Part shown: one piece after another, positions 5,880 through 41,919 of the stretch | Layout: every line of letters starts with the position of its first letter | How positions within the stretch are numbered: the stretch's first letter is position 1 | Assembly: GCA_045627785.1 (NCBI GenBank) | Contig: JAZQOF010000047.1 | Location: forward strand, 50,199 to 114,198 | Reading direction: 5' to 3' | DNA: 64,000 nucleotides | Source of the DNA: Bacteroidales bacterium | GTDB taxonomy: Bacteria; Bacteroidota; Bacteroidia; Bacteroidales; UBA3663 | Made by a program: the position numbers and the translations under genes | Notes under the pieces: model-generated | Told to the model about the DNA's origin: nothing | The model's input: the letters and a program-made list of their open reading frames with translations, nothing else | Databases searched by the model: none

Positions 5880-6200
5880 TGAAGATCATAACTTTCTCTT
5901 TCTGCTATACATTTCGACGCTCTACGATGACAACTTCCGAAAAAGAAAGTATTGATCAGAGAGCGTCGATGAGAACTCAGAGCGACTGGAGTAGTCATCG
6001 TAGGGCTACGACATCAACAACTGTTTACAAGTGTTGATGTCGACGCTCGTCAATCGGACTTCCGGACTTCCGGCGGACTCATTGACGACCGTCAATGACT
6101 TCTCGGGATTTCCCGTGGACTGATTGACGATCGTCGATGACTATGCTATAATAAGTTTGGTCTTATCATAAATCGTCAATCAGAGTACGAAATTTTATTT
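5880..6200. repeat. intergenic repeat cluster A (42-bp-period units plus 10-bp-stem hairpin), related to cluster at 36434..36860
   Basis: Units with ggact[c/g]attgacga..cgtc.atgac recur at 6075 and 6117 (period 42). There is a hairpin gacatcaaca/tgttgatgtc at 6010..6041. The block cgtcgatgag.actca...ctggagtagtcatc is shared with 36568..36610. Confidence 0.75.
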
Positions 6201-19659: not shown

Positions 19660-19694
19660 TTATCACAAATCTCTCTAAGGGAAATTTAGAGTCT

Positions 19695-20717
19695 TTAATT
19701 AATTGTCAAGTGTTTATTATCATGCTCTGAGAGCACATAAAGGTAATCAGGATTGATTGTAATTGTCAGATCGTAGTACTTGCCGGCTTCAAGTGAACTG
19801 ATAGGATCATTAAGAGATTTAAGCGTGACCTTATTGGTGGCGGTAACGCCTTTGCGAGTAAGATGTGCTGCAGAAATGTCATCTTTGTCATAGATGTCGT
19901 ATGTACACTTGAATGTCAACTCACTGCTGGTAGTAATTCCACCATCGCCTGTAGTGCGGATATATGCACAGGCATAAGGCGTAGCTGAACCGGACAACTT
20001 CATGCCAGGAAGAGGGTTTTCCGAGGTTCCTCCCACATTGGCATCGTTACCCAGAAGCAAGGTCTGATCATTGATTGTGACCTCACGTAGCACAATATCG
20101 CGAATCTGCAAATACTTATTACTTACCACAAACTTTAGACGGAGCAAAGCTGTGCGATGCTTGAGTGTAAAGAGCAGGTGATCTCGATAATTTTCATTAA
20201 CGGGATATCCTGTTGCATCGCTTGACATATAATCACATGCACCGATGGCAGGTATGTTGGAGAACGATAAGAGTATATTACTCGCAGGTTTATCTGTTGC
20301 ATTTCCATTATCCAGCATATAATACGCCACCATTCCTCCTCGGCGAGCATCTCCGCGTGAGATTGGGCACTTTCTCAGTTCTTCGTTCTCCATTGAGAAA
20401 AACTTATGATATGGCTTATACCCGTCAGGTTCCTTGCTCGTCTCAGGGGTTTCTTTAGAATCATTTTTGACGTAGAACATTTCTTTGTCAGGCACATTGA
20501 TGCATATCCATGCTGGTGTTGGAGTCGTGATAATTCCACTCAGGAAGTCAGGCAAAGCTCGTGTATCATTCCCTGCACGTCCATCTAGCCACGTTGAAGT
20601 GACCATGATGGAGAGCGGAGCTTCTTCATCAAGAAATTCTACATGCTCGTCAGTGCAACCGGCAGACAACAATGACGCAGCAAGAATGATGTATTTATTA
20701 AAGAATTTGATTCTCAT
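19695..20717 (-). CDS. type-V-pilin-like lipoprotein (accessory/tip candidate)
   Basis: The ATG at 20717 gives MRIKFFNKYIILAASLLSAGC (lipobox). It has GRA/TRA Arg-Ala sites at aa 46-54 after a short strand (LSIMVTS). Confidence 0.6.
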   Translation of the reverse strand: MRIKFFNKYIILAASLLSAGCTDEHVEFLDEEAPLSIMVTSTWLDGRAGNDTRALPDFLSGIITTPTPAWICINVPDKEMFYVKNDSKETPETSKEPDGYKPYHKFFSMENEELRKCPISRGDARRGGMVAYYMLDNGNATDKPASNILLSFSNIPAIGACDYMSSDATGYPVNENYRDHLLFTLKHRTALLRLKFVVSNKYLQIRDIVLREVTINDQTLLLGNDANVGGTSENPLPGMKLSGSATPYACAYIRTTGDGGITTSSELTFKCTYDIYDKDDISAAHLTRKGVTATNKVTLKSLNDPISSLEAGKYYDLTITINPDYLYVLSEHDNKHLTIN

Positions 20718-20745
20718 TTTTATTATTTGCGTTTGCAAGCAGCAA

Positions 20746-21951
20746 TTACCAGTTAGTCCATTGGTCAGAAGTGCTACCACCAGACTGCCATTCTGTTATG
20801 TTGGCATCGACGAAAAGCAAACCGCCTTCAAGTACCTTGAAAATATATGTGTACTGGTAATTGGGTTTCCAGTGCATGTAAGCGGATGGGACGATAGCCG
20901 TCTTGGGCTCAGTATCACCATCAACGTTTACAGAGAACTTATAGTCGGGAGCGGTGACATCAGTACCTGTTGGAAGGACGTAGTAGAATGTTTGATTATC
21001 CTTATTGGATTCTTCTGCGTCTTTTGGATAAGCTACAGCGGCAGTGTTTGATGCACAATTCTCAGAAGTGAGCTTTAGTACTTTGCCACTACCTGCTATT
21101 GAGGCATCGAAACCCTTGAATTCGAATTTATCGAGATAAGACTCAGTCTGAGAAACTATGCTGTAAGACTCAGAATTTTTGTCAGAAAGAGGATAAGTGA
21201 CGTTGATTGTGGCTGATTTTACAATCTTCGGTTCTTCAACGTTAGGTCCGAACGAAATATCAGTAAGTTCGATAGCATCGCCTTCGTTACCATCTTGTGG
21301 CGCTTCGAGTTTTTCTCCTGAATAAACCATGACACGAACCTTGGCGTATGGTCGTATGAATTCCATTTGTACTACTTTCCCGAAATCTCCTTTTGGAACT
21401 GTCTTCAAAGATGAAATATAATAGCCAGTCTGTTCGGTTATTCCAAGCAGAAGTCCTTCAATCGTTAATGTCTTTCCATCATTAGTAGGAGATATTTTAT
21501 CGTCGTTTTCAACATATCCCCAATAACGGTATTCGTTAGCAGAATAATCCCAATACTTGATTTCCTGCTTTATATTATTTATTGAAGTTCCTCCTACATA
21601 AGAGAAACCATGTGAATTATCTTCCGATGTTTCTGATGAATTATCAGAATACTTTACATTATAGCCATTGAATACAATCTGTGAAGAATTATCAGTTTTT
21701 ATCTTATATCCATATACAACAAAGTCTTTATCTAGAGCTTTCGATGCGCGAGTGTTTGCGCCCGCACGCGTAGAAGAAATCTCTTCTTGCAGGATTGAGG
21801 AAAATGACACAGCTGCATGCTGCTCCGGAGTCGGATCAGGTGTTGGTGTTACTTCTATGTCTGGCTGTATGATGCCATTAGGATCATCGTTGTTGCATGA
21901 AATGGCAAGCATTGCAGAAAAAGAGAGTATATATGGTATGTAACTTTTCAT
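20746..21951 (-). CDS. fimbrillin-family (type V pilin) lipoprotein
   Basis: Lipobox MLAISC and TRA sites at aa 61-63 and 67-69. It shares IKYWDYSA and WKPNY.YTYIFK motifs with the 580-aa neighbour. Confidence 0.7.
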   Translation of the reverse strand: MKSYIPYILSFSAMLAISCNNDDPNGIIQPDIEVTPTPDPTPEQHAAVSFSSILQEEISSTRAGANTRASKALDKDFVVYGYKIKTDNSSQIVFNGYNVKYSDNSSETSEDNSHGFSYVGGTSINNIKQEIKYWDYSANEYRYWGYVENDDKISPTNDGKTLTIEGLLLGITEQTGYYISSLKTVPKGDFGKVVQMEFIRPYAKVRVMVYSGEKLEAPQDGNEGDAIELTDISFGPNVEEPKIVKSATINVTYPLSDKNSESYSIVSQTESYLDKFEFKGFDASIAGSGKVLKLTSENCASNTAAVAYPKDAEESNKDNQTFYYVLPTGTDVTAPDYKFSVNVDGDTEPKTAIVPSAYMHWKPNYQYTYIFKVLEGGLLFVDANITEWQSGGSTSDQWTNW

Positions 21952-22009
21952 TTTTGACGGTCTATATACATTATTATATATACGCGCGCGATTTTTTTAT
22001 ACATCAACC

Positions 22010-22037
22010 ATGCGAGGAACAATTATATCCCTCGCAT
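22010..22037 (-). other. stem-loop in the 113-nt gap after the 580-aa pilin gene
   Basis: atgcgagg ... cctcgcat forms an 8-bp stem. No U-tract follows on the minus strand. Confidence 0.35.
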
Positions 22038-22064
22038 AGCTAATATTATTTATGAATAGATTGA

Positions 22065-23807
22065 TTACTGAACCTTGATTACCTTAACGTAGTTTTTTGA
22101 ACCGTCGGTGTACTGGAATACATAGGTCTTGCCCGACGCCACAGTAAATTTGCAAGCAGAAACAGCAAGTGTATTACCATCTGAGGCAGGAACTTCACTT
22201 ACTAATTCATAACCACATGAAGCCAAAGTAATGCCAGTATCATGCTTACTTCCATTCAACTGATCCTGTACAAGAGTCTCTGTAATAATCTTTGGATCTG
22301 TTGCTGTAGCAATATAAACAGCGACACCAGCAGGAGCAGTGAGTGAACTGAGATCAACCGCAGTAGTCTTATTCATTACAGAAGCATAAATATCACCAGC
22401 CTTATACTCGTTACCTGAAGTTACTACCTTACCAGCCTGATAAGTTGTAATAGAAGGAGTAGAAACTGTTGTAATAGTCTCCTGAATGCCGTCCTCGGTA
22501 TCCACTACGACAGCATCGAAGGTGATTGGTGTGAGACCCTGAACAACATTTCCAGAACCATCAACACCTGTCCACCCATTAGTAGCATCAGAAATCTTGA
22601 AGATGTAGGTGTATGCATAATTTGGTTTCCAGTCAGCATAAGCAGCAGGAACTACAGCACTTGCATCACGAACGTGAATTGTCTCGTCAGAGCCATCAGT
22701 AGATACAAGATCATATTCGATGCGAATCTGAAGATTGTCCTTTGTTCCAAGAGGAAGGACGGTCTGATAGTAATTGTTTGAGGCAGCACCTGCATAAGTA
22801 GCTGTATTAGAAGTACGGCCAAGATAATCTCCGTCAGCTTCAGAATCATCTTTAGTCTCTTTGTAGTCAAGTGTACCAAAAGTCATTGTCTTTACAAGTG
22901 CATCTCCTGTTTCACTACCAGCAGCAAACTTGACGTGAGCCAGGTTATAGTCAGAACTCAATGTTCCATTTGAAGAATTTGCCCAACCAACGGTAGGATA
23001 GTAAACGCTCATCGTACCCTTAGAGGTTGCTGATGGGAAAACTTTACTTGCGGCAAAGAGAGTTGCTTTGTCTTCACCTACAGTTGTAGTCTTCGAGCCA
23101 TCCCATGCGGCATTATAGAACTTAACATTCTTTACAGAGTATCCAGGAACAGTCTCATATAATGCGACACGAACCTTAGCACCAAGACTGCGGAATTTAA
23201 GAGTTACAGTCTTTCCAAACTCACTAACGCCATCACGATTATATACTGTTACGAGATCCGCAATATATGCAGAAGCAAGTTCTTCTGCTGATCCCTTTAG
23301 GGTATATACAGCATCAGATGTGCCAAGTTTGGTATAATCAATTTTTGAAAGAGTTGCAAAGGTTTTTTCTGTTGAAGAAGTACTCGAAACACCAGTACCA
23401 TACGAGAATCCGACAAAGTCATACTGTGTTGCTGAATAGTCCCAATACTTGATATTCTGAGCAGAGGCACTAGAAAGAGTATGTTTTGTTTGGCCGACAT
23501 ATTCCCAACCAGCTACGTTTGTCTCTGTTTTATTTGCGCTATCTTCAATATAGTTTACATTATAGTGGTCAAAGACCTTAGTTTTAGTAGAACCATCACC
23601 CTTGATACCCATAACAACGAAATTGTTATTGAGCAATCCTGCAGCGGTCGACCCTTCTGCACGTGTTTGCGCCTTTGTACCAGAGTCAAAAAGAATCGGC
23701 TTATCACCATTGATGGTGTGCTGAGCTTCTTCCGAGCCTAAAAACTCATTGTCAGCACACCCCGCTAATAGCAAGGCTGACAAAGAAGTTAATAAAACTT
23801 TTTTCAT
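22065..23807 (-). CDS. fimbrillin-family (type V pilin) lipoprotein, candidate major/stalk subunit
   Basis: Lipobox LLLAGC and TKAQTR|AEG at aa 44-52. It shares motifs NIKYWDYSATQY and YADWKPNYAYTYIFK with the 401-aa paralogue. Confidence 0.7.
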   Translation of the reverse strand: MKKVLLTSLSALLLAGCADNEFLGSEEAQHTINGDKPILFDSGTKAQTRAEGSTAAGLLNNNFVVMGIKGDGSTKTKVFDHYNVNYIEDSANKTETNVAGWEYVGQTKHTLSSASAQNIKYWDYSATQYDFVGFSYGTGVSSTSSTEKTFATLSKIDYTKLGTSDAVYTLKGSAEELASAYIADLVTVYNRDGVSEFGKTVTLKFRSLGAKVRVALYETVPGYSVKNVKFYNAAWDGSKTTTVGEDKATLFAASKVFPSATSKGTMSVYYPTVGWANSSNGTLSSDYNLAHVKFAAGSETGDALVKTMTFGTLDYKETKDDSEADGDYLGRTSNTATYAGAASNNYYQTVLPLGTKDNLQIRIEYDLVSTDGSDETIHVRDASAVVPAAYADWKPNYAYTYIFKISDATNGWTGVDGSGNVVQGLTPITFDAVVVDTEDGIQETITTVSTPSITTYQAGKVVTSGNEYKAGDIYASVMNKTTAVDLSSLTAPAGVAVYIATATDPKIITETLVQDQLNGSKHDTGITLASCGYELVSEVPASDGNTLAVSACKFTVASGKTYVFQYTDGSKNYVKVIKVQ

Positions 23808-23848
23808 AATAGTTGATTTATTTTAATTAGTGTTATTAATATATTTTC

Positions 23849-25042
23849 TTAATCTTTTACGTCAAATTCATGTGTTTCATCTACCCACTCCTGAACTACT
23901 GCATCGAAACCGGAACCGCCGTTACGACCAGGAGAGCGGATAGTGTCCATATCCAATTCAACTGTGATCACACCACCGCGGAAACGTCTGATGACCTGAT
24001 CGGTGACATCGAAGTAGAGTGTCGAGTCATTACCGTTACCGAATATCAAATTGACATCCATGTAATGTCGCTGATTTCGTATCTGTTCAGGTATCTGAAG
24101 ATGATAGCGGTAGTCAAATGGATTGATGCCTCGTATTCCGAATGTTGTCAGACGACCTCCTACGATATCGACCTCCTCATTGCGATGCGTGTCATAAACA
24201 TTCTGTTTAAGGCGAGTGTTGTAATGTACTGCAACAGGATCGTTGCCTGCAATGCCTGTGTTGAGTGTTGTCGAATAGGCAAAATTCGACAGGTTGGCAT
24301 TACCATCTGTTCCTACAACCTTACCCCAGTTGTGATGAATGATAACCTGTGTGAGGTAAATATACACCACAGGATTCAGGAGCATGTCTATATATTTGTA
24401 ATATGTATCATGCACTTCGTCGTAATAATCATAATCCTCGATATTCTTGCTGATATAGACTTTCTTTTTTTCGGCAGCATATAGCTCTTCCGGCTGGTTG
24501 TATGCATAAGCTCGTGTAGAGTGATAGCGTGTGCCGTAATTTGTTTCATTCGTGTAAGCTGTAATCGAGTCAAGTGTTGTCTCTTCGTCGATTACAATGC
24601 TCTGAGCGACATCCCGTGACTCTATCTCGTTATAGACGAGGAAATCGTAATAACCGAAGTTATAAGTCGATGTGAACGAATGACCGTGTATCTGATCTCG
24701 TAATACTGTTGTATGCTTTGCCAACGTGTCGTGTCCGAGATAATAGCGGCGTATATTGAAGTCCTCAGGTAATGTGTATCCGATAGGACCGAAAAGAAGG
24801 CTGTCTGTTTCATCCCATCCGTAACGCCATTCCTTTCGCCAATCGTAAACTGTATCGTAGCCGAACTCGTACAGGAGATCGTAGTTCCAGACGACATCGA
24901 AGTCAAGAACTACTTTCGGAAATTTTACATCGATGTCAATCTCTTCGCGAAGATGCAATGGTGGAATAGGATCACAACCTCCTATAATACTAGTGAAGAG
25001 TAGCGCAACGGTAACATACATGGCACGCAATAGCTGTTTCAT
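23849..25042 (-). CDS. lipoprotein (DUF5119-like from memory), candidate pilus anchor/assembly component
   Basis: The ATG at 25042 overlaps the upstream stop (ATGA). Signal and lipobox read MKQLLRAMYVTVALLFTSIIGGC. It occupies the position after the DUF3575-like gene, as in Bacteroidales fimbrial loci. Confidence 0.5.
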   Translation of the reverse strand: MKQLLRAMYVTVALLFTSIIGGCDPIPPLHLREEIDIDVKFPKVVLDFDVVWNYDLLYEFGYDTVYDWRKEWRYGWDETDSLLFGPIGYTLPEDFNIRRYYLGHDTLAKHTTVLRDQIHGHSFTSTYNFGYYDFLVYNEIESRDVAQSIVIDEETTLDSITAYTNETNYGTRYHSTRAYAYNQPEELYAAEKKKVYISKNIEDYDYYDEVHDTYYKYIDMLLNPVVYIYLTQVIIHHNWGKVVGTDGNANLSNFAYSTTLNTGIAGNDPVAVHYNTRLKQNVYDTHRNEEVDIVGGRLTTFGIRGINPFDYRYHLQIPEQIRNQRHYMDVNLIFGNGNDSTLYFDVTDQVIRRFRGGVITVELDMDTIRSPGRNGGSGFDAVVQEWVDETHEFDVKD

Positions 25043-26496
25043 CGCAGATCTCCTTTCTTCTTCATTTTTCGATAGAAGATATCGTACGACAAAGTGATGC
25101 CGATGCGTGTTGGACCTAACCATGTGAACAGATACTGACGTTCCTTGAAATCCTTCGCCTTGCCTTGCCAGTCATAGTAATATAGCTCGTCAATATGACG
25201 ATCGACAGGATCTCCATAGACGTATGGATCGTATTTAGTGCGGAAGTACCCGACCTGAAAGCCGACTTCGAGTCGCCAATGATGCTGATCGGTCCAGAGG
25301 TGCCCGTCTGGCATACGTACTGTTTCGCGTTTCTTGCCGAGTCTCCATACATAACCTGCACCAACGCCGCCGCCCCAGCCTTCGCCTTGCCAACCTTTGA
25401 CATCGGTGAAGCCGATACCATACTTGGCAGCATTTGCATAAGCCTGTACATACCATCCACGGAATGAGCCGCTCTCCTGGAAGTAACGACGGGTTTCGAG
25501 CTGCCAATTGCGTATCTGGAAATACTTATGTTGTTTCTGCTTGTTCTGCCACCAAGGAATGTCGAGCGATGCACCGTATGTCCAATGTCCCTTGAGCGGA
25601 TAATATTCGAGTTGGATGTTCCAGATAGGAGCGAACCCGTACTGAGGAACATATGCCACATCCTGAAGCAGGTTTGTCTTGAGAGAAAGCCATTCGCGAC
25701 GCACGTTGTTCTTGACAACAGGCTTTTCGTATCTTGCCATCTCTCGAAGTTCGGTCGGTATTGTCACGCCAGGAAGATCCAATGGCTTTGACTGCAAAGG
25801 TTTGATGCCAAGATCCATCACATCACCGGCTTTGTTCTCTGGAAAGATGATCATGAAGCGTGATGCTCGGAGACTTGGGAAGTATTCTGCCTTGATGCGG
25901 TTCCAGAGCTTACCGCCATTGTAATTCATCAGGCGATTCTTGAGGGTTACAGGATCTTTGATTCCGGTAGCCACCATCTTGCTGACCAATTCTGCTTCCG
26001 GGTCTTTGGCTTGTCGCATCATGAAAGCCAGTAGTTGGTATTCCTCATCGACTACGTCAATCTGGAGTTCCGAGGCAGATACACCATGTTCCTGGAATAT
26101 CTTCAGAAGTGCATCACGGCGTCCTTTGCTCAGTCGTTGGTTGAGTTCAAGCGATCCTTCCGGTGAGGCTGCACTACGGATGCGGATGCGGGCATTGCGG
26201 ATATTCTCGCCATTGAGCAATGGCACAGCGTAACGTATAAAATGTTGGAGTTCCCGATTATTGGCATCAATTGTAGTGCGTCCTGCCGAGAATACGATTG
26301 GCAATGAACGCATAAAGAAAAGTGAATCGACTTCTAACGCATCTCTATTGGCATCTTCAGCAAATATTATGTATGACGAGACGTTTAGAGACTTCTCTTC
26401 CGGAGCCAAGAGTTTCTCACCCTTGGTTACACTGGTCAGTAAAGTCAAGAACATACTGGTCAGGATTAGTAGATGCTTTTTAGCAAGATTCTTCAT
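25039..26496 (-). CDS. DUF3575-like outer-membrane beta-barrel protein with N-terminal OmpA-like (ASPEGS) segment
   Basis: It has a signal peptide. SAASPEGSLELNQRLSKGRRDAL is an OmpA-like signature. The C-terminal half starts LSLKTNLLQDVAYVP and has alternating aromatic/Gly strands, typical of DUF3575. Confidence 0.65.
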   Translation of the reverse strand: MKNLAKKHLLILTSMFLTLLTSVTKGEKLLAPEEKSLNVSSYIIFAEDANRDALEVDSLFFMRSLPIVFSAGRTTIDANNRELQHFIRYAVPLLNGENIRNARIRIRSAASPEGSLELNQRLSKGRRDALLKIFQEHGVSASELQIDVVDEEYQLLAFMMRQAKDPEAELVSKMVATGIKDPVTLKNRLMNYNGGKLWNRIKAEYFPSLRASRFMIIFPENKAGDVMDLGIKPLQSKPLDLPGVTIPTELREMARYEKPVVKNNVRREWLSLKTNLLQDVAYVPQYGFAPIWNIQLEYYPLKGHWTYGASLDIPWWQNKQKQHKYFQIRNWQLETRRYFQESGSFRGWYVQAYANAAKYGIGFTDVKGWQGEGWGGGVGAGYVWRLGKKRETVRMPDGHLWTDQHHWRLEVGFQVGYFRTKYDPYVYGDPVDRHIDELYYYDWQGKAKDFKERQYLFTWLGPTRIGITLSYDIFYRKMKKKGDLR

Positions 26497-36433: not shown

Positions 36434-36582
36434 ACATCGACGCTCGGGAATTTGTTCTCCGGACTTCCCGTGGGCTCATCGACGCTCGTCAATCAGTTCT
36501 CCGGACTTCCTGTGGGCTCATCGACGCTCGTCAATCAGTTCTCCGGACTTCCCGTGGACTCATCGACGCGCGTCGATGAGCA
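36434..36582. repeat. tandem 42-bp repeats (3 copies plus a partial)
   Basis: ctccggacttcccgtgggctcatcgacgctcgtcaatcagtt starts at 36457, 36499 and 36541. A partial copy lies at 36434..36456. Confidence 0.9.
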
Positions 36583-36860
36583 CTCAACTTTTCTGGAGTA
36601 GTCATCAAACTGATACGAACGGAACTCTTGTCACCAAGAGTTGTCATCGTACCTCTACGAAGACATTTCCGACTTCTCGGAAGTCCAATCTCCGTTTGGA
36701 GATTAGACTTTTTAAAACTCCGAAGCCCAATCTCCATGCGTCGACATCAACACTTTGAACATTGTGTTGATTTCGCCAAATGTCGATGACACTTCCTGTT
36801 TTCTCGTAGCCCAAACCATCTGCTCCGATGACATTTCGGAATTCTGGGGAGCCCGATCGG
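36583..36860. repeat. cluster of short hairpin-forming repeats continuing repeat cluster B
   Basis: It contains the palindromes actcttg..caagagt, gacttc tcg gaagtc and aatctcc gttt ggagatt, plus atcaacac...gtgttgat (36746..36771), the counterpart of the hairpin at 6010..6041. Confidence 0.65.
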
Positions 36861-36947
36861 AGCAGTTTGACAAGAGAAAGTAGAAAATGTCCGCACCAAC
36901 TACTAAATTTTATATCATATTCATTTGGAGATAAGAAATATAATCTC

Positions 36948-36955
36948 TATCTTTG
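36948..36955 (+). promoter_or_regulatory. -7 box TATCTTTG
   Basis: Matches TAnnTTTG, 68 nt upstream of the ATG at 37023. Confidence 0.4.
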
Positions 36956-37022
36956 CACCATAAATCATTCACGCAAAGTGTAATGATCATTGTAACTTAT
37001 AAAACCAAATTTCAGAACATCT

Positions 37023-37649
37023 ATGGAACAAGAGATCCAGAAGAAAGGCGAGGTGATATTGTATCACCCGAGTGAGACTATCAAGTTAGAGGTAAGACTT
37101 GAGAATGAGACCGTGTGGCTAAGTGTAGAACAAATGTCATTGTTATTTGCAAGAGATAGATCTGTCATTGGTAAACATATCAGGAAAATATTTGAAGAAG
37201 GAGAATTGGATAGAACCGAGGTATGGGCAAAATTTGCCCATACCACTCTTCATGGCTCTGTTGTAGGTTTGACCCAAACAACGATGTTGGATTATTTCAA
37301 CTTGGATGTTGTTATTTCTGTAGGGTATAGGGTAAAAAGTATTCAAGGAACATTGTTTAGGAAATGGGCGAATAAAATCCTTAAGGAATACCTTATAAAA
37401 GGTTATGTTGTCAATCCACAACTTCCATTTATCCAACGACAGATAGACGACCGATTCATCGCTTTGCAGGAGAACACAGATAAAAATTTCTGTTACTTGA
37501 ACAAAAAGTAGAACATCAGCAGGAGCAGATCGACCTCTACATCAAGACCAATGAAGAGCCGAAGGAACTGCTTTTTGGCAACGGATGTGTGTTCGATGCC
37601 TGGAACTACATTTCAGACCTTGTGCGTAGCGCAAGGCGAGAGATTGAAA
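37023..37649 (+). pseudogene. RhuM-family (ORF6N-like DNA-binding) gene, frameshifted near 37481..37500 and 3'-truncated at 37650
   Basis: The N-terminal 162 aa (VWLSVEQMSLLFARDRSVIGKHIRKIFEEGEL, NLDVVISVGYRVKS) are RhuM-like. Homology continues in the +2 frame (LFGNGCVFDAWNYISDLVRSARREI) and stops at the repeat copy L. Confidence 0.6.
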
Positions 37650-37687
37650 GTAACATAGTATCTGTTACCCAAAAGAGAGACTGTCCC
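37650..37687 (+). repeat. cassette-flanking repeat, copy L
   Basis: Reads gtaacatagtatctgttac ccaaaagagagactgtccc. The core is an imperfect palindrome, GTAACA-N7-TGTTAC. Confidence 0.8.
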
Positions 37688-37757
37688 ACACACCCTAAAA
37701 AGCTATTATTGTATATAATTAATTATATACGTTATAATAGACCTTTACGGTCTCATA

Positions 37758-37793
37758 CCCACTCTGTGTTTTTTGTAACAGTTACTATGTTAC
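37758..37793 (-). repeat. cassette-flanking repeat, inverted copy L'
   Basis: The plus strand reads cccactctgtgttttttgtaacagttactatgttac. The 19-nt core at its end, gtaacagttactatgttac (37775..37793), is the exact reverse complement of the copy R core, gtaacatagtaactgttac. Confidence 0.8.
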
Positions 37794-37883
37794 CGAACCA
37801 AATCTCAGTTTCAAAACCTTATAAAATTCTTTTAGAATTTCAAAATTTCTTATTATAACATTTTGTTATTTCAAAATAAAGGT

Positions 37884-37891
37884 TATCTTTG
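37884..37891 (+). promoter_or_regulatory. -7 box TATCTTTG upstream of the nuclease/methyltransferase cassette
   Basis: Matches TAnnTTTG, 254 nt upstream of the ATG at 38145. Confidence 0.35.
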
Positions 37892-38144
37892 CACGTGAAA
37901 TAAATCATATCATTAGAGAAGTCAACCGTTGAGATACTTCATGCCATCATGGAGAAAGTCGCTGCAGCTGCACACGAATCTACAAAACGTATTGAAAAGA
38001 TTCATAGTCATTCTTTGGCAGATAGGATTCAGAGAAGTGCGATTCTTCAAAGAGTTTAATTATCACAGCGTGTTTAACGAGAAGGTAAAATCATACGACT
38101 ATTTTAAAGAAAAATAACTTGCTAAAATACAATCAACTGAAGTT

Positions 38145-38939
38145 ATGAACAAAGAACTCATCGATCAAATATCCGAGTATGTAGAACAGCACATTGGAGA
38201 ATTCCATGCAGCTCGACTCGAAAAGTTAAAGAAGCTCGATCTTAAGAAGCTTCTCACACGCAAAAATCCTTATATGTATAAGGCTAAGCACATAATAACC
38301 GCAAGTGAAATGGTTGAAGGCTTGGCATCTGCATTTATGTCCTCTGCAGAAGAAACCATCTTTGGTAACTGGATGGAAACTATTGCTATTTTCGTTTCTG
38401 AAAAAGTCTATGGCGGTCATAAGTCTTCTGCTGAAGGCGTAGATTTAGAGTTTGACAATGAAGGAGTACATTATTTTGTATCCATAAAGTCTGGCCCAAG
38501 TTGGAGCAATAGCACCTCAATGAAAAAGCAGAAACAACAGTTTGTAACTGCAACAAAGGTATTTAACACGAGTCGAAAAACGGTTCCGACCATGTGCATT
38601 GAAGGTTGTTGTTATGGTAACGATAACAAGGGCTATAATGACAGTACTCACGAGAAATATTGCGGAGAAAAGTTCTGGGCTCTCATTTCTGGCGAACCTA
38701 CTTTGTTCGTTGACATCATAGACCCTTTGGGATTTAAAGCGAAAGAAAAAAACGAAGAGTATTATCAGGAGTACGGAAAGATGATCAACAAGATAACACA
38801 ACAGTTTATCAAGAACTTCTGTGCAAAAGACGGAAGCATCAATTGGGAGAAGATTGTACGATTAAATGCTGCCATCAAAGTTCCAAAAGAAACTAAGCCA
38901 AAGAAAGAACAAAAATCATCAGCAAAGAAATCAAAGTAA
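38145..38939 (+). CDS. PD-(D/E)XK type II restriction endonuclease-like protein 1 (PmeII-type family from memory, unverified)
   Basis: GVD-x15-SIK nuclease-like motif (VDLEFDNEGVHYFVSIKSGPSW). The N-terminal LLTRKNPYMYKAK segment is one I recall from type II REase families. It lies in an operon with a Dcm-type methyltransferase. Confidence 0.55.
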   Translation: MNKELIDQISEYVEQHIGEFHAARLEKLKKLDLKKLLTRKNPYMYKAKHIITASEMVEGLASAFMSSAEETIFGNWMETIAIFVSEKVYGGHKSSAEGVDLEFDNEGVHYFVSIKSGPSWSNSTSMKKQKQQFVTATKVFNTSRKTVPTMCIEGCCYGNDNKGYNDSTHEKYCGEKFWALISGEPTLFVDIIDPLGFKAKEKNEEYYQEYGKMINKITQQFIKNFCAKDGSINWEKIVRLNAAIKVPKETKPKKEQKSSAKKSK

Positions 38940-38944
38940 AAATT

Positions 38945-39820
38945 ATGTTCTTTTTCTTTAACTTCGATAATAGCAAACAAGACACTAATAACTACGAGAG
39001 TGTTTCCGCAGCAATTTGTGACATTGTCCAATCGTTGATGGAAAATGTTATGAATAGAGTTCTTGTGACCGATCCTTTTGTAGCAGAGGAGCATCTCGCG
39101 AAGAAACCACTTTATGCGGCTCTTGTGCCAGATGAAATTTTTAAGGCTTCTCATTTCGAACGTAGGTTCGTGACACCATTTGGTTCTGCTTGGGAGAAAC
39201 TTGCGATGGCTGTTGGAAGCGTCCACCACGGCAAATGTACCAAGGGTGCAACCGTTGATGGTACTATCGGAAAGGAACGACTGAGACGAATACAGGAAGT
39301 TCTTAATCAATTAGAACATGGGGTAAATGGCAATAAGAAGATGAAGCCAAATTGGGATGAAGAACTTGCTTACATCCTAGCTGGTGGAGGCGAACCTATC
39401 CCGACATCAGTTACGTGTGACATACTTATCAATAGCAACATTACAGACGAAACTTACGCATTCGAGTTGAAAGGACCTCTGCCAAATAGCGACCAGACAA
39501 AGGTCAGCAAAGAGAAGATGTTCAAGTTGCTTGCAATGGATGGTAATCCTGTGCAACACGCCTATTATGCTTTGCCTTACAATCCGTACATTAAACGCGA
39601 GAATTATGACTGGTCATTCCCAGGACGTTGGTTCAACATGAAGGAAGACTCTTGCGTATTGATTGGCGATGAATTATGGAATTTGATTGGAGGCGAAGGT
39701 ACATACCAACTTTTTATTTCTGAAATCAACAAATTAGGAGCCCACTATAAGGAACGCATTTATCGAGAATTCCTTGGCATTGAGCCTCCTGAAGGTTTTG
39801 ATAAAGCAACATTAAGATAA
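38945..39820 (+). CDS. PD-(D/E)XK type II restriction endonuclease-like protein 2 (TdeIII-type family from memory, unverified)
   Basis: CD-x14-ELK motif (CDILINSNITDETYAFELKGPLPN). It also has FVTPFGSAWEKLA and ALPYNPY...VLIGDELWNLIGGEGTY. It starts 5 nt after ORF 1 and ends 3 nt before the methyltransferase. Confidence 0.55.
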   Translation: MFFFFNFDNSKQDTNNYESVSAAICDIVQSLMENVMNRVLVTDPFVAEEHLAKKPLYAALVPDEIFKASHFERRFVTPFGSAWEKLAMAVGSVHHGKCTKGATVDGTIGKERLRRIQEVLNQLEHGVNGNKKMKPNWDEELAYILAGGGEPIPTSVTCDILINSNITDETYAFELKGPLPNSDQTKVSKEKMFKLLAMDGNPVQHAYYALPYNPYIKRENYDWSFPGRWFNMKEDSCVLIGDELWNLIGGEGTYQLFISEINKLGAHYKERIYREFLGIEPPEGFDKATLR

Positions 39821-39823
39821 CAG

Positions 39824-41803
39824 ATGGCACAATTCTCATTCATAGATTTATTTGCAGGCATTGGCGGATTTAGACTCGCACTTGAAAGTGTGGGCGGTCA
39901 ATGCCTTGGCTTTAGTGAGATAGCTCCCGATGCCATTAAAACATATTGTGCCAACTTCAAAGAGAGCGAAGATTACAATTTTGGCGACATTACCAAACTG
40001 AAGGAACTGCCAGAGCATGATTTCATGACTGCGGGCGTTCCTTGTCAGAGTTGGTCGATTGCTGGTAGGAATCTTGGATTTGACGATGACCGTGGCCAAT
40101 TATGGAATGATACGCTGTTCCTCTTGAATAAAGTTCGGCCGAAGGCTTTTATCTTTGAGAACGTTAAAGGTCTTGCTGATCCTCGTAATAAGGAAGCACT
40201 TGATTACATTCTCGAACGTATTAGGCAAGCTGGTTATCATGCGCAAAAGTTTTTGCTCAACGCGTACGATTATGGAGTGCCTCAAACGCGCGTTCGCATA
40301 TACATAATAGGGTTCCGTGACAAAGAATTCTTTAACAAATTCGTTCTTCCAGAGTCTTTCCCTGGTAGAGTGCGTTTAGGTGACGTACTTGACATTGAAG
40401 ATCAATGCAACTGTATACTTAGAAATGTCAAAGGAGAAACTGAAGAGCGTAAGGCTCGTTGGAGCTTATCTTGCAATGAGCAAGGGTTCAATGACTATTT
40501 CCTTTTCAATGATTTGAGAAATGGGGATACTACAATTCACTCATGGGATATTGCAGAAACGACAGATAAGGAGAAACAGATTTGTTATCTGCTGCTCTCA
40601 AATCGTCGTAAGCGAGACTATGGTGAATTGGATGGCAACCCTCTGTCACTAGTGCATTTTCAATCACTCGATCCCACAGTTCAAAAGTCTGACCTTGAAG
40701 GATTGGTTAAGAAGAAAATTTTGAAGAAAGTAAACTATCAGTACATTCTTCAAAATGTTAATCATCCTTTGACTCCAGCAGAGGCACTCATTGTCTCTTT
40801 GAACAAAGGAAACGTATTGAATGTCGATAACCTCAAGGTAAATAGAGAAATCAAGAAGCAAAAGATAAACGTAGTAGATATACTTGCTTCATTGTCAAAG
40901 AATGGCGTAATCCGTTGTATTGAGGTGCGTTACGATTTTAAGAATACGAAAATCAGTACAGGTTTGGATGGCATAAATCGTATCATCTTACAATCATCAA
41001 GAATCTATCCAACACTTGTGGCAAGCGATACCAATGACTTTGTAGCAACAAAAGGATGCAGTGGAGAAACCATCGATTTGTTTCGCCAGTCGTTCATGAA
41101 AGAAATCTATATACCTAAAAATTATCGGAAGATAACAAAGTCGGAGGCTTGTCGAATTCAGGGATTCCCTGCTGATTTCAAGTTGCCTCCGACTCGTCCT
41201 CGTTGGATGAAGTTAATTGGAAATAGTGTTGCTGTGCCTGTAATCAAAATCCTGGCAAATGCAGTAGTTGAAACAGGAGTATTTGATGGTTGTGTCGTTA
41301 AAAAACGGAATCCTAAATGTATTCAACTCAATTTCTTTGAACTCTTCGACCAGTACCAGCTTGAGCCGATTACTCAAAACTATTTAGTTCGCGATGACAA
41401 TAAAGTTGAATATAGAACAGCCAATGGAATTAACTTTTTACCTGTTGACCTCACCAAGAATCTCCTTATCTGTAATGTCAAGAAAGATAATTGGGAGCAG
41501 TACCTTGATGGAACAGCCAAGATCTATTATACAGGCAAGAAGTTCCCAACTACTGTTGCGCTCAACAAACTCTATTATTTCATGCCTTACCTCTCTGGTA
41601 AGGGCATACGCGACCTCTACTACATCAGGATTGCCCGCCTTGGCTACCGTAAAGAAGGTCAGGAGAATGAGGACAAGAACGATCTTCGCCTGGTGTTTGA
41701 GATAGAACGTATCGGTCAGCTCTTCGATGATTACAAGAAGGTAAAGCTCGAAATTTGGCGTACGTTTACGGATACTACGATGAAGAAGATTCTGAATATG
41801 TAA
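39824..41803 (+). CDS. DNA (cytosine-5)-methyltransferase with ~267-aa variable region and ~170-aa unassigned C-terminal extension
   Basis: Motif I FIDLFAGIGGF, IV GVPCQSWS, VI ENVKGL, VIII QTRVRIYIIGF, IX RKITKSEACRIQGFP and X LIGNSVAVPV. At 659 aa it is far longer than typical Dcm enzymes. Confidence 0.9.
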   Translation: MAQFSFIDLFAGIGGFRLALESVGGQCLGFSEIAPDAIKTYCANFKESEDYNFGDITKLKELPEHDFMTAGVPCQSWSIAGRNLGFDDDRGQLWNDTLFLLNKVRPKAFIFENVKGLADPRNKEALDYILERIRQAGYHAQKFLLNAYDYGVPQTRVRIYIIGFRDKEFFNKFVLPESFPGRVRLGDVLDIEDQCNCILRNVKGETEERKARWSLSCNEQGFNDYFLFNDLRNGDTTIHSWDIAETTDKEKQICYLLLSNRRKRDYGELDGNPLSLVHFQSLDPTVQKSDLEGLVKKKILKKVNYQYILQNVNHPLTPAEALIVSLNKGNVLNVDNLKVNREIKKQKINVVDILASLSKNGVIRCIEVRYDFKNTKISTGLDGINRIILQSSRIYPTLVASDTNDFVATKGCSGETIDLFRQSFMKEIYIPKNYRKITKSEACRIQGFPADFKLPPTRPRWMKLIGNSVAVPVIKILANAVVETGVFDGCVVKKRNPKCIQLNFFELFDQYQLEPITQNYLVRDDNKVEYRTANGINFLPVDLTKNLLICNVKKDNWEQYLDGTAKIYYTGKKFPTTVALNKLYYFMPYLSGKGIRDLYYIRIARLGYRKEGQENEDKNDLRLVFEIERIGQLFDDYKKVKLEIWRTFTDTTMKKILNM

Positions 41804-41845
41804 GGATACTCAACGAAGACGATGCGCCTAGCGACGATAGCAAAG

Positions 41846-41887
41846 GTAACATAGTAACTGTTACTAGAATGAGAGAGTGTCCTAGAC
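41846..41887 (+). repeat. cassette-flanking repeat, copy R
   Basis: Reads gtaacatagtaactgttac tagaatgagagagtgtcctagac, in direct orientation to copy L and 43 nt after the methyltransferase stop. Confidence 0.8.
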
Positions 41888-41911
41888 TTTTTTATTTACA
41901 AACAAAATATT

Positions 41912-41919
41912 TATATTTG
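41912..41919 (+). promoter_or_regulatory. -7 box TATATTTG
   Basis: Matches TAnnTTTG, 44 nt upstream of the ATG at 41963. Confidence 0.45.

What the first reader, a model, noticed from the sequence alone, without database searches (positions are those of the whole stretch)
37650..41887. 4.2-kb nuclease/methyltransferase cassette bracketed by three copies of a ~40-bp palindrome-containing repeat
Seen: copy L (37650..37687) and copy R (41846..41887) are direct repeats. Their cores are gtaacatagta[t/a]ctgttac, and the tails match at about 16 of 23 positions by eye. Copy L' (37758..37793) is inverted, so L and L' form a ~145-bp MITE-like unit with terminal inverted repeats. L' and R flank the three-gene cassette with their GTAACA ends facing inward. 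The cassette looks visibly more AT-rich than the flanking GH and sulfatase genes (not computed). There is no integrase or transposase in the window. Inference: the repeats mark the acquisition scar or a recombination substrate for gain and loss of the cassette.
Basis: partly seen in the sequence, partly recalled or inferred. Interest (0 to 1): 0.55.

Follow-up and report, generated by a model that had tools for sequence, protein, structure and literature searches.

The report
Repeat-bounded restriction-modification block in a variable island
Three copies of an undescribed short palindromic repeat of gut Bacteroidales sit at the two seams of a 4.3-kb restriction-modification gene block that some strains of this species carry and others lack, so the repeats probably mark where the block was recombined in, by an unknown mechanism.

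Summary
The core GTAACATAGTAWCTGTTAC occurs three times (0.04 expected), as a 145-bp hairpin doublet (L/L') and a 41-nt singlet (R) around two restriction endonuclease genes and a C5 methyltransferase gene.

The repeats belong to an undescribed dispersed family. I found 47 copies in 30 loci of 17 uncultured rumen or hindgut Bacteroidales MAGs, mostly beside housekeeping genes. None were in phages, plasmids, Rfam or the searched literature.

Conspecific contigs show three alleles between the sulfatase and PreA-like genes: empty, type I R-M, and this type II block.

The low-GC island (about 36.7-41.9 kb) starts 950 bp left of L. It includes a RhuM pseudogene that is cut off 4 nt before L. Homology to the empty allele resumes 2-25 nt after R.

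The same layout (doublet, cargo, co-oriented singlet) brackets unrelated cargo in two other genomes.

Eleven homologous R-M modules elsewhere lack the repeats. The empty allele has no core, and no recombinase lies in the window.

Verdict: the repeats are recombination seams of a non-autonomous block, and the enzyme is unknown. This is a new member of a known kind, of moderate interest.

The parts
36435..36574 (.). A 42-bp tandem hairpin repeat (3.3 copies) from a different dispersed family. It is the left seam of the whole low-GC island.
   Evidence: TRF. Copy number differs between alleles, and homology to the empty allele L163 fades at about 36681. The same repeat opens the RhuM module in a different context in L167 and recurs at window 6040-6140.
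37023..37645 (+). RhuM-family pseudogene. It covers residues 1-208 of a 312-aa protein, has a frameshift near 37484-37508, and is truncated 4 nt before L.
   Evidence: Pfam PF13310. The intact homologue P0255 is 96% identical. tblastn shows homology ending at ...SA[K/R]REI, which is 37645, and no C-terminal remnant anywhere in the island.
37647..37691 (+). Copy L. It is the A-type half (21-bp core GGTAACATAGTAWCTGTTACC region plus tail AAAAGAGAGACTGTCCC) and forms the left end of the doublet and of the block.
   Evidence: (nhmmer E = 5e-12).
37692..37756 (.). AT-rich, partly palindromic centre of the doublet.
   Evidence: and alignment A2 of 16 units.
37757..37795 (-). Copy L'. It is the B-type half (core plus tail AAAAAACACAGAGTGGGTA), inverted, with its core facing the cassette.
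   Evidence: (E = 3e-10). Its closest relative is L042, not L or R.
37884..37891 (+). TATCTTTG, a match to the Bacteroides -7 promoter box TAnnTTTG, upstream of the cassette. This is inferred, not tested.
   Evidence: Read directly from the sequence. A similar box precedes RhuM (D4). The consensus is taken from my knowledge of Bacteroides promoters.
38145..38939 (+). Type II restriction endonuclease, EcoO109I/PmeII family.
   Evidence: Pfam PF14511, E = 4e-75. Homologues are named PmeII family.
38945..39820 (+). Second type II restriction endonuclease, TdeIII/HinfI family.
   Evidence: Pfam PF09520, E = 8e-62.
39824..41803 (+). C5 cytosine DNA methyltransferase (659 aa) with a C-terminal extension of about 180 aa.
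   Evidence: Pfam PF00145, E = 2e-78, covering residues 4-481. The same three-gene module occurs in L149-L159.
41840..41888 (+). Copy R. It is an A-type singlet, co-oriented with L, starting 43 nt after the methyltransferase stop codon, and forms the right end of the block.
   Evidence: E = 6e-12. It is identical in L059 and present in L165 and L166.
41889..41912 (.). Right junction, the interval in which homology to the empty allele resumes. The native PreA-like promoter box TATATTTG follows at 41912-41919.

Best explanation
L/L' and R are a doublet and a singlet of an undescribed dispersed palindromic-repeat family of uncultured gut Bacteroidales. A unit is an A half, an AT-rich centre and an inverted B half, about 130-160 bp in all. 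The free form is a singlet of about 41 nt.

The invariant part is a 21-bp site: 7-bp inverted arms GGTAACA/TGTTACC around an asymmetric 7-nt spacer TAGTAWC. That is what a recombinase or transposase recognition site looks like.

In the window the repeats are the two seams of a non-autonomous 4.26-kb block (37646 to about 41905). The block is doublet, promoter, two restriction endonuclease genes, a C5 methyltransferase gene, then a co-oriented singlet.

My preferred mechanism is that the block was joined to its neighbours by recombination at these repeats, catalysed in trans by the still unidentified enzyme that spreads the family. In the process it replaced the 3' third of a RhuM gene and everything up to the native promoter of the PreA-like gene.

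At population level, the whole 5.2-kb island is gained, lost and swapped for a type I R-M system by ordinary homologous recombination in the conserved flanking genes.

Shown: the repeats and their family, the three alleles, the breakpoint positions, and the recurrent architecture. Inferred: that the repeats are the substrate of the joining event, that an enzyme recognises the core, and the order of events.
For: 1. The repeats are real and belong to a family. I found 47 copies with a shared tail in 30 loci of 17 Bacteroidales MAGs. The hits in other phyla (28 of the 58 loci) carry no tail and fit the roughly 69 chance matches expected for 17 specified bases in 596 Gb.

2. The unit structure is conserved and asymmetric (A and B halves) in 16 units. 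Only the core is invariant, and there is no compensatory covariation. Conservation is therefore of sequence rather than of a fold.

3. The family is dispersed. A 402-bp composite is 96% identical in unrelated flanks (L018/L057). Paralogous copies occur within one MAG (L019/L056, L044/L058). An array is shared by L033 and L031 with unrelated flanks.

4. The locus has three alleles in one species. The empty allele is L163 (97.3-97.7% identity over 17 kb), the type I alleles are L160 and L164, and the type II allele is the window, L059, L165 and L166. The identical PreA-like protein P0242 sits next to both the type I and the type II allele.

5. The breakpoints coincide with repeat edges. RhuM homology ends at 37645 and L's core starts at 37650. 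Homology to the empty allele resumes 2-25 nt after R.

6. In about 59 kb of non-island window DNA, and in the empty and type I alleles, there is no copy of the repeat.

7. The same polarity, A(+) B(-), cargo, A(+), brackets other accessory DNA between housekeeping genes. In JAZQQH010000102.1 the cargo is a type III R-M system, unknown genes and a DUF3987 gene, 9.5 kb in all. In CADCIQ010000026.1 it is a 424-aa unknown gene and a DUF3987 gene, 4.1 kb in all.

8. Homology among three DUF3987 loci ends at the singlet: at its tail end between L017 and L041, and 5-8 nt past the core in the comparisons with L048, whose tail diverges.
Against: - No recombinase or transposase lies in the window or in the two comparable blocks.
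- The empty allele has no core sequence, so integration into a pre-existing site at this locus is not shown.
- No target-site duplications are visible.
- Eleven homologous R-M modules in other contexts have no repeat. The nearest shares DNA only over 38125-41285.
- Most family copies sit beside ordinary housekeeping genes.
- Arrays are arranged identically in four or five species, so there is no sign of ongoing inversion or shuffling.
- The recurrent architecture rests on n = 3. Empty sites for the other two blocks were not available.
- The left edge of the whole island is not at a copy of this repeat.
Confidence: 0.45

Rival explanations
1. The repeats are bystanders. They are selfish MITE- or REP-like elements that settle in intergenic spacers. 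The R-M island came and goes only by homologous recombination in the flanking core genes after horizontal transfer, as in Neisseria minimal mobile elements. The repeats arrived with the donor DNA, or inserted later, and played no part in the joining.
For: - Three alleles lie between conserved flanks, and the exchange relative to the empty allele is not clean: 214 nt of L163 are replaced.
- The outer left boundary lies in an unrelated 42-bp repeat.
- Homologous cassettes elsewhere lack the repeats.
- Most family copies lie beside housekeeping genes, and no mobility gene is nearby.
- L and R are not close relatives within the family.
Against: - The RhuM gene is cut within 4 nt of L's outer edge, and no continuation follows L'.
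- R abuts the right junction.
- Identical polarity and placement occur in two unrelated blocks.
- Singlets lie at homology breaks after DUF3987 genes.
- No copies occur in about 59 kb of surrounding native DNA.
Confidence: 0.3
2. No dedicated enzyme is involved. The dispersed 40-150-bp repeats simply provide patches of homology at which general (RecA-type) or illegitimate recombination stitches modules from different genomes together.
For: - Seams fall on repeats of two different families: the 42-bp hairpins on the left, and L and R inside and on the right.
- The island is a mosaic. The RhuM module is 92% identical in another context in L167.
- RhuM homologues decay by deletions between short repeats.
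Against: - The 21-bp core is invariant across genera while the tails drift. That points to a sequence-specific reader, and a dispersed family needs some spreading mechanism.
- Cores of 19-21 bp, in 41-nt copies only 76-80% identical overall, are short for efficient RecA-dependent exchange. This point rests on general knowledge.
Confidence: 0.15
3. The repeats act at RNA level, as terminators, insulators or processing sites at gene 3' ends. They flank the cassette because they punctuate transcription units.
For: - Singlets lie 10-45 nt after stop codons, or overlap them, co-oriented with the upstream gene. This holds for R, L010, L012, both copies in L042, and the DUF3987 genes.
- The L/L' hairpin is very stable.
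- The next gene's promoter box follows directly.
Against: - There is no U-tract, and the terminator scan finds nothing at L, L' or R.
- Nothing in the L/L' region scored at more than half of any Rfam family's gathering threshold.
- No covariation is seen, and the tails of the two halves are conserved in sequence but are not complementary.
- An RNA role would not explain why the RhuM truncation point and the points where homology with other alleles and genomes ends fall at the edges of repeat copies.
Confidence: 0.07

Closest known systems
Neisseria minimal mobile elements with flanking NIME/dRS3 and Correia repeats (recalled from memory; no paper read here)
   Same: Different strain-specific gene cassettes, often R-M systems, lie between the same two conserved genes. 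An empty allele exists, no mobility gene is present, short palindromic repeats lie at the edges, and exchange is by homologous recombination in the flanks.
   Different: The phylum and the repeat sequence differ. Here the repeats have a fixed doublet-plus-singlet polarity that recurs around unrelated cargo. Natural transformation is not known for this organism.
MITEs and MITE-flanked composite units such as integron mobilisation units (MITE background from PMC11602168; the composite units are recalled from memory)
   Same: The L/L' unit is about 145 bp, has terminal inverted repeats, is non-coding, intergenic and multicopy, and needs an enzyme supplied in trans. Two copies bracket cargo genes.
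   Different: No target-site duplication and no matching transposase were found. The right end is a single half-element in direct, not inverted, orientation. The terminal repeat itself contains a palindrome.
REP / BIME / REPIN elements mobilised by RAYT (Y1 HUH) transposases
   Same: A short palindromic core occurs as singlets, inverted doublets that form hairpins, and clusters of alternating orientation mixed with other small motifs. Copies are extragenic and often lie just after stop codons.
   Different: No RAYT gene was seen near any copy. Copy number appears low (tens at most, from exact-core hits). The host is Bacteroidales rather than Proteobacteria. The unit is longer and asymmetric.
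Xer-dependent modules (pdif modules of Acinetobacter plasmids; IMEX such as the gonococcal genetic island)
   Same: Cargo blocks without their own recombinase are bounded by short sites built of inverted arms around a 6-8-nt spacer. The core's TATGTTAC resembles the conserved XerD-arm motif TATGTTAA, a resemblance recalled from memory.
   Different: The arms are 7 bp rather than 11 bp, and the match to dif is partial. The sites here lie at several chromosomal loci rather than at the terminus or on plasmids. Xer involvement was not tested.
Integron gene cassettes with attC sites
   Same: An imperfect palindromic site of about 60-150 bp with conserved ends and a variable centre is associated with a gene cassette.
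   Different: There is no IntI. The R'/R'' consensus (GTTRRRY/RYYYAAC) is not matched. The cassette has its own promoter, and the palindrome lies upstream of the genes.
IS200/IS605 family and their PATE derivatives
   Same: Subterminal hairpins at both ends lie in direct orientation, with no terminal inverted repeats of the whole block and no target-site duplication.
   Different: No TnpA (Y1) or TnpB gene is present. The left end carries an additional inverted copy. The cleavage and target motifs are unknown.

Membership tests
MITE | Short (50-800 bp) non-coding unit with terminal inverted repeats | tested here: met
   L/L' is 149 bp. The arms are 60 nt at 72% complementarity with a 19-nt core identical except at the one variable (W) position. 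Sixteen comparable units occur in other genomes.
MITE | Target-site duplication flanking the unit | tested here: not met
   No direct repeat of 2-10 bp was seen at the edges of 16 units when inspected by eye. A short or degenerate duplication cannot be excluded.
MITE | Multiple dispersed copies in different contexts | tested here: met
   There are 47 copies in 30 loci of 17 MAGs. Paralogues lie in unrelated flanks. In this genome only the island copies are seen within 64 kb.
MITE | An autonomous element with matching ends that encodes the transposase | tested here: not met
   No transposase family recurs among 101 neighbouring ORFs. There is none in the window. Whole genomes could not be scanned.
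REP/REPIN-RAYT | Palindromic repeats as singlets, inverted doublets and alternating clusters in extragenic DNA | tested here: met
   Some copies overlap the 3' ends of ORFs.
REP/REPIN-RAYT | RAYT (Y1 transposase) gene flanked by the repeats; hundreds of copies per genome | not testable with these tools
   Only 8-kb blocks around exact-core hits were available. No Y1_Tnp appears among the recurrent neighbour families.
Site-specific integrative element (attL/attR) | Direct repeats with an identical core at both junctions of the inserted DNA | tested here: met
   L and R are co-oriented and share 18 of 19 core bases. The junctions lie at 37645/37650 and at 41887/41889-41912.
Site-specific integrative element (attL/attR) | An empty site carrying one copy of the core (attB) | tested here: not met
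   The empty allele L163 has no family hit at E <= 10, and none is visible in its 480-bp spacer. The immediate ancestor (an intact-RhuM island) was not available.
Site-specific integrative element (attL/attR) | Cognate integrase or recombinase within or next to the element | tested here: not met
   Searches cover the window. Searches cover the two comparable blocks.
Xer-dependent module (pdif/IMEX) | 28-bp XerC arm, 6-nt spacer and XerD arm sites bounding the module | tested here: inconclusive
   The core is 7-7-7 with a partial XerD-arm resemblance, judged by eye. The dif site of this organism is unknown, and no binding data exist.
Integron cassette | attC with R''/L''/L'/R' boxes, a nearby intI, and promoterless cassettes | tested here: not met
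   The core does not fit GTTRRRY. No integrase is present. The cassette has its own promoter-like box.
Minimal mobile element / defence-island hot spot | Alternative gene contents, including an empty state, between the same conserved flanking genes in one species | tested here: met
   L163 is empty, L160 and L164 carry type I R-M, and the window, L059, L165 and L166 carry type II R-M. The flanks are 95-98% identical.
Type II restriction-modification system | An endonuclease and a cognate methyltransferase encoded together | tested here: met
   PF14511, PF09520 and PF00145 lie in one co-oriented cluster. The three-gene order is conserved in 11 other loci. Specificity and activity were not tested.

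The most novel reading that the evidence does not exclude
The 21-bp 7-7-7 core would be the crossover site of an unrecognised cassette-mobilisation system of Bacteroidales. It would move recombinase-less accessory blocks, here R-M systems, as units of doublet, cargo and singlet. The enzyme would be supplied in trans. Candidates are a host Xer-like tyrosine recombinase, or a protein encoded by the DUF3987-bearing relatives whose 3' end always carries the singlet.
Probability: 0.2. Interest if true: 0.7.

Novelty: new member of a known kind. Interest (0 to 1): 0.42.

Why it matters
Defence systems in gut Bacteroidales turn over rapidly, but the seams at which modules are exchanged are poorly mapped in uncultured rumen and hindgut lineages.

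This locus gives one species with three alleles: empty, type I R-M and type II R-M. Its breakpoints are resolved to a few bases, and an undescribed repeat family sits on the internal and right seams.

The same doublet-plus-singlet bracket surrounds a type III R-M island and a two-gene DUF3987 block elsewhere. If that reflects a dedicated mechanism, it would be a compact, enzyme-in-trans way of moving defence cargo, comparable to pdif modules or MITE-flanked units, in a phylum where such a mechanism has not been described.

If it does not, the family is still a useful marker for mosaic junctions and for assembly breaks in these genomes.

Tried and rejected
- Rfam. The whole window at gathering thresholds gave only two tRNAs. 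The L/L' region at E <= 10 gave only chance-level CRISPR-DR and sRNA hits.
- Canonical promoter and terminator scan. Nothing was found at the repeats.
- Phage origin. Nine IMG/VR core hits lack the tail and match the chance expectation. There was no blastn hit in INPHARED phages or in PLSDB plasmids.
- Literature. There was no paper containing any of the four core variants. The MITE survey PMC11602168 gives only general context.
- Target-site duplications. None were seen around 16 units.
- RNA or hairpin covariation. Only the invariant core-core pairs are predicted, and there are no compensatory changes.
- Shufflon or inverton idea. Arrays have the same order and orientation in the orthologous loci L001, L033 and L046, and the same partial order in the non-orthologous array L031. 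The sets L014, L016 and L024 also agree. There is therefore no evidence of inversion.
- Protein-coding reading of the repeat (GNIVTVT..DC). It holds in DUF3987 3' ends, but a stop codon follows directly in intergenic copies.
- JGI metagenome scan for close relatives of the PreA-like gene. It gave only homologues of about 60% identity without synteny, so it served as background DNA. There was 1 family hit (E <= 10) in about 0.9 Mb.
- Looking for a recombinase. Pfam was run on all window ORFs of at least 150 aa. Pfam and PHROGs were run on the unknown proteins of the comparable blocks, and a PDB-sequence search on the 424-aa one. All were negative.
- Structure prediction of the 424-aa protein was not attempted, because the tool's stated rules admit only window sequences and proteins returned by the homologue search.

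Full report
**Observation.**
The pattern GTAACATAGTWNCTGTTAC matches the window three times: at 37650 (+), 37793 (-) and 41846 (+). Shuffles give 0.04 expected matches. L and R are direct repeats of 45 nt at 80% identity. L and L' are inverted arms of 60 nt at 72%, separated by 24 nt. L' and R are inverted repeats of 35 nt at 86%.

The L/L' stretch folds into one long hairpin, -46.6 kcal/mol as RNA with z = -7.85. The genes between the repeats are an EcoO109I/PmeII-family endonuclease, a TdeIII/HinfI-family endonuclease and a 659-aa C5 methyltransferase.

GC is 0.394 for 37650-41887. The flanking sulfatase side is 0.480 and the PreA/GH3 side is 0.505. The low-GC stretch already starts near 36700.

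No integrase or transposase domain occurs in any of the 40 non-nested ORFs of at least 150 aa (and the gene calls). The description is therefore correct. Its limits need adjusting.

**The repeat is a family.**
A scan of one genome per GTDB species for GTAACATAGTNNCTGTTAC returned 58 loci. For 17 specified bases in 596 Gb, about 69 chance matches are expected. The single hits in Firmicutes, archaea and other phyla have no similarity beyond the core.

Thirty loci from 17 MAGs behave differently. These are uncultured Prevotellaceae, Bacteroidaceae and Bacteroidales, with names that indicate rumen, yak reticulum and horse faeces. They share a tail (YAAAWGAGAGACTGTMCC and variants) and often carry several copies in alternating orientation.

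The recurrent unit is 130-160 bp. It consists of:
- an A half: the core followed by ...GACTRTCCCC..CCTAAAGGTCTATTAT;
- an AT-rich palindromic centre;
- an inverted B half: the core followed by AAAAACACAGAGGGGGTAAGG....

L is an A half, L' is a B half and R is an A-type singlet. Singlets in independent contexts all stop being similar after about 41 nt, at ...ACTGTMCC. They are therefore a discrete form rather than random truncations.

Across 16 units only the core is invariant. RNAalifold predicts only core-core pairs, with no compensatory change, and the two tails are conserved in sequence but are not complementary. The core reads as 7-bp inverted arms GGTAACA/TGTTACC around an asymmetric 7-nt spacer TAGTAWC. 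That is the layout of a protein recognition or crossover site. This reading is an inference.

The family is dispersed. A 402-bp composite containing the unit is 96% identical between L018 and L057, whose flanks are unrelated. Paralogues exist within single MAGs, and an array is shared by L033 and L031 with unrelated flanks.

Nothing similar is found in Rfam, IMG/VR, INPHARED phages or PLSDB plasmids, or the searchable literature.

Among 101 ORFs within 4 kb of copies, the neighbours are ordinary metabolic and transport genes. The only family shared by more than three of them is DUF3987, with five members.

**The cassette elsewhere.**
The three-gene R-M module is widespread. Eleven loci were examined. 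They include the closest relative, L149, at 96% endonuclease identity. Other copies are flanked by AbiH genes, or lie inside a mobile element that also carries NERD, Vsr, NUDIX and a BT4734-like/DUF3987 gene.

The gene order is the same in all eleven, but none carries the repeat. DNA homology between the window and L149 runs only from 38125 to 41285. The repeats are therefore not an intrinsic part of the R-M module.

**The locus is polymorphic within the species.**
Contigs with 95-98% DNA identity to the window's flanks show three states between the sulfatase gene and the PreA-like dihydropyrimidine-dehydrogenase gene:
- L163 is empty, with a 480-bp spacer.
- L164 and L160 carry a type I R-M system. 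L164 has a GNAT gene, hsdM, hsdS and hsdR. L160, which starts inside hsdM, has hsdM, hsdS, a DUF1016 gene and hsdR.
- L059, L165 and L166 carry the methyltransferase 3' end and R, as in the window.

The same PreA-like protein sequence (P0242) lies next to both the type I and the type II allele, which suggests recent exchange. More distant species (84-87% protein identity) have other neighbours and no R-M system there.

**Breakpoints.**
Against the empty allele, homology is lost at about 36681. That point lies inside a region of 42-bp tandem hairpin repeats and related small modules. Homology resumes at 41889-41912, which is 2-25 nt after the end of R and just upstream of the shared TATATTTG promoter box. 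Against the type I allele the right breakpoint is 41954.

Inside the island, 37023-37645 is a RhuM-family pseudogene. The intact homologue P0255 has 312 aa and is 96% identical. The window copy has a frameshift near 37500, stops matching after residue 208 (...SA[K/R]REI, position 37645), and has no C-terminal remnant anywhere else. L's core starts at 37650.

The stretch 36517-37587 (hairpin repeats, promoter and RhuM) is 92% identical to L167. There it follows a different gene and is followed by different cargo, without the repeat.

The island is therefore a mosaic. It consists of a RhuM module followed by a discrete block, 37646 to about 41905, that begins with L and ends with R.

**Recurrence of the architecture.**
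The genome-scan loci are consecutive 8-kb blocks of their contigs, so two pairs of loci could be joined.

- In JAZQQH010000102.1 the order is: GH9 gene, A(+) B(-) doublet, type III Res and Mod genes, three unknown genes, a DUF3987 gene, an A(+) singlet, then a MatE gene.
- In CADCIQ010000026.1, after flipping, the order is: epimerase gene, an array ending in A(+) B'(-), a 424-aa unknown gene, a DUF3987 gene, an A(+) singlet, then an inositol monophosphatase gene.

This is the window's layout with unrelated cargo. No integrase was detectable in either block.

In four loci the singlet core lies in frame at the very 3' end of the DUF3987 gene (...RGVYRK..GNIVTVT...). For the three compared by BLAST (L017, L041, L048), DNA homology ends at or just after the singlet. 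What follows differs: a DUF5675 gene in two loci, and housekeeping genes in the other two. A fifth DUF3987 gene carries a degenerate core.

**Interpretation.**
Three conclusions follow.

2. The repeats are members of a wider, undescribed Bacteroidales family of MITE/REP-like palindromic elements.
3. Their placement here is not random.

On the third point, the repeats sit on both seams of the block that holds the cassette. They are absent from the roughly 59 kb of surrounding native DNA and from the alleles that lack the block. The same polar bracket recurs elsewhere.

I therefore favour the reading that the block is a non-autonomous, repeat-bounded module. It would have been joined by recombination at the repeats, through the unknown enzyme that spreads the family. 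Presence or absence of the whole island in the population is adequately explained by homologous recombination in the conserved flanks.

The case is weakened by several points. No recombinase was found. The empty allele has no core. No target-site duplications were seen. Homologous cassettes elsewhere lack the repeat. Most copies lie in housekeeping contexts. The recurrent layout rests on only three examples.

The bystander explanation and homology-driven stitching remain serious rivals. An RNA-level role is the least supported.

**Comparison with known systems.**
Functionally, the locus matches the Neisseria minimal-mobile-element picture. That picture has alternative cassettes, often R-M systems, between fixed genes, with small repeats at the edges.

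The L/L' unit meets the structural definition of a MITE, apart from the target-site duplication and a cognate transposase. The singlet, doublet and cluster pattern resembles REP/REPIN/BIME elements, but without a known RAYT.

The recombinase-less, site-bounded block resembles pdif modules and IMEX, but the site does not match a dif site convincingly. Integron attC sites and IS200/IS605 ends were considered and do not fit.

I rate this a new member of a known kind, of moderate interest.

Noticed in passing
window 36435-36574 and 6040-6140; L167 6175-6240; L163 5730-5837: A second dispersed repeat family. It is a 42-bp unit (CATCGACGCTCGTCAATCAGTTCTCCGGACTTCCCGTGGGCT) with an internal palindrome, tandem 3.3x at the island's left seam. 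It also occurs downstream of the giant ORF, and opens the RhuM module in another genome. Copy number differs between alleles.
   Followed up: partly
window 6206-17584 (-) and 17542-25171 (-): A 3793-aa ORF with no Pfam family. It lies in a co-oriented cluster with five further ORFs (366-706 aa) that also have no Pfam hit, and a DUF3575 protein. This is possibly a fimbrial or adhesin-like locus.
   Followed up: no
window 38145-41803; L149-L159: The R-M module always pairs two different endonuclease families (EcoO109I/PmeII and TdeIII/HinfI) with one C5 methyltransferase of 627-669 aa. The window copy (659 aa) has about 180 aa after the Pfam match. The role of the second nuclease and of the extension is unknown.
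   Followed up: no
P0256, P0259 (homologues of window 37023-37645); L167 6640-7269: The same RhuM gene is degraded independently in other strains by in-frame internal deletions between short repeated motifs (LFGNG...FGNAWG; DDRF...HDRF). This suggests it is dispensable baggage of these islands.
   Followed up: partly
L167 7290-7540: About eight copies of CTCCTCACA/GTGAGGAG, in both orientations, lie in the spacer after RhuM and ahead of a 93-aa ORF and a PLD/SNF2 gene. This is unexplained.
   Followed up: no
L018 3330-3595, L019 4230-4935, L056 4290-4585, L030 1190-1425: Next to the A half of several doublets lie other small modules. These are GC-rich hairpin repeats (GGCATCCTCCACAGCGTACCCGGTGAAGGATGCC, up to five tandem copies) and clusters of TTATCAAC/GTTGATAA boxes. 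Together they form mosaic composites of about 400 bp that are themselves dispersed.
   Followed up: partly
L019+L048 (JAZQQH010000102.1 37070-46650) and L041+L031 (CADCIQ010000026.1 45138-49529): Two repeat-bracketed accessory blocks end in a DUF3987 primase/helicase-like gene. One carries a type III R-M system. The other holds only a 424-aa protein with no detectable family. Neither has a recognisable integrase.
   Followed up: partly
L033 4010-4070 versus L001: A 61-nt indel lies directly beside the last repeat copy, between two MAGs that are 97% identical. The inserted piece is itself repeated in L014. Small modules next to the repeats are therefore gained or lost.
   Followed up: no
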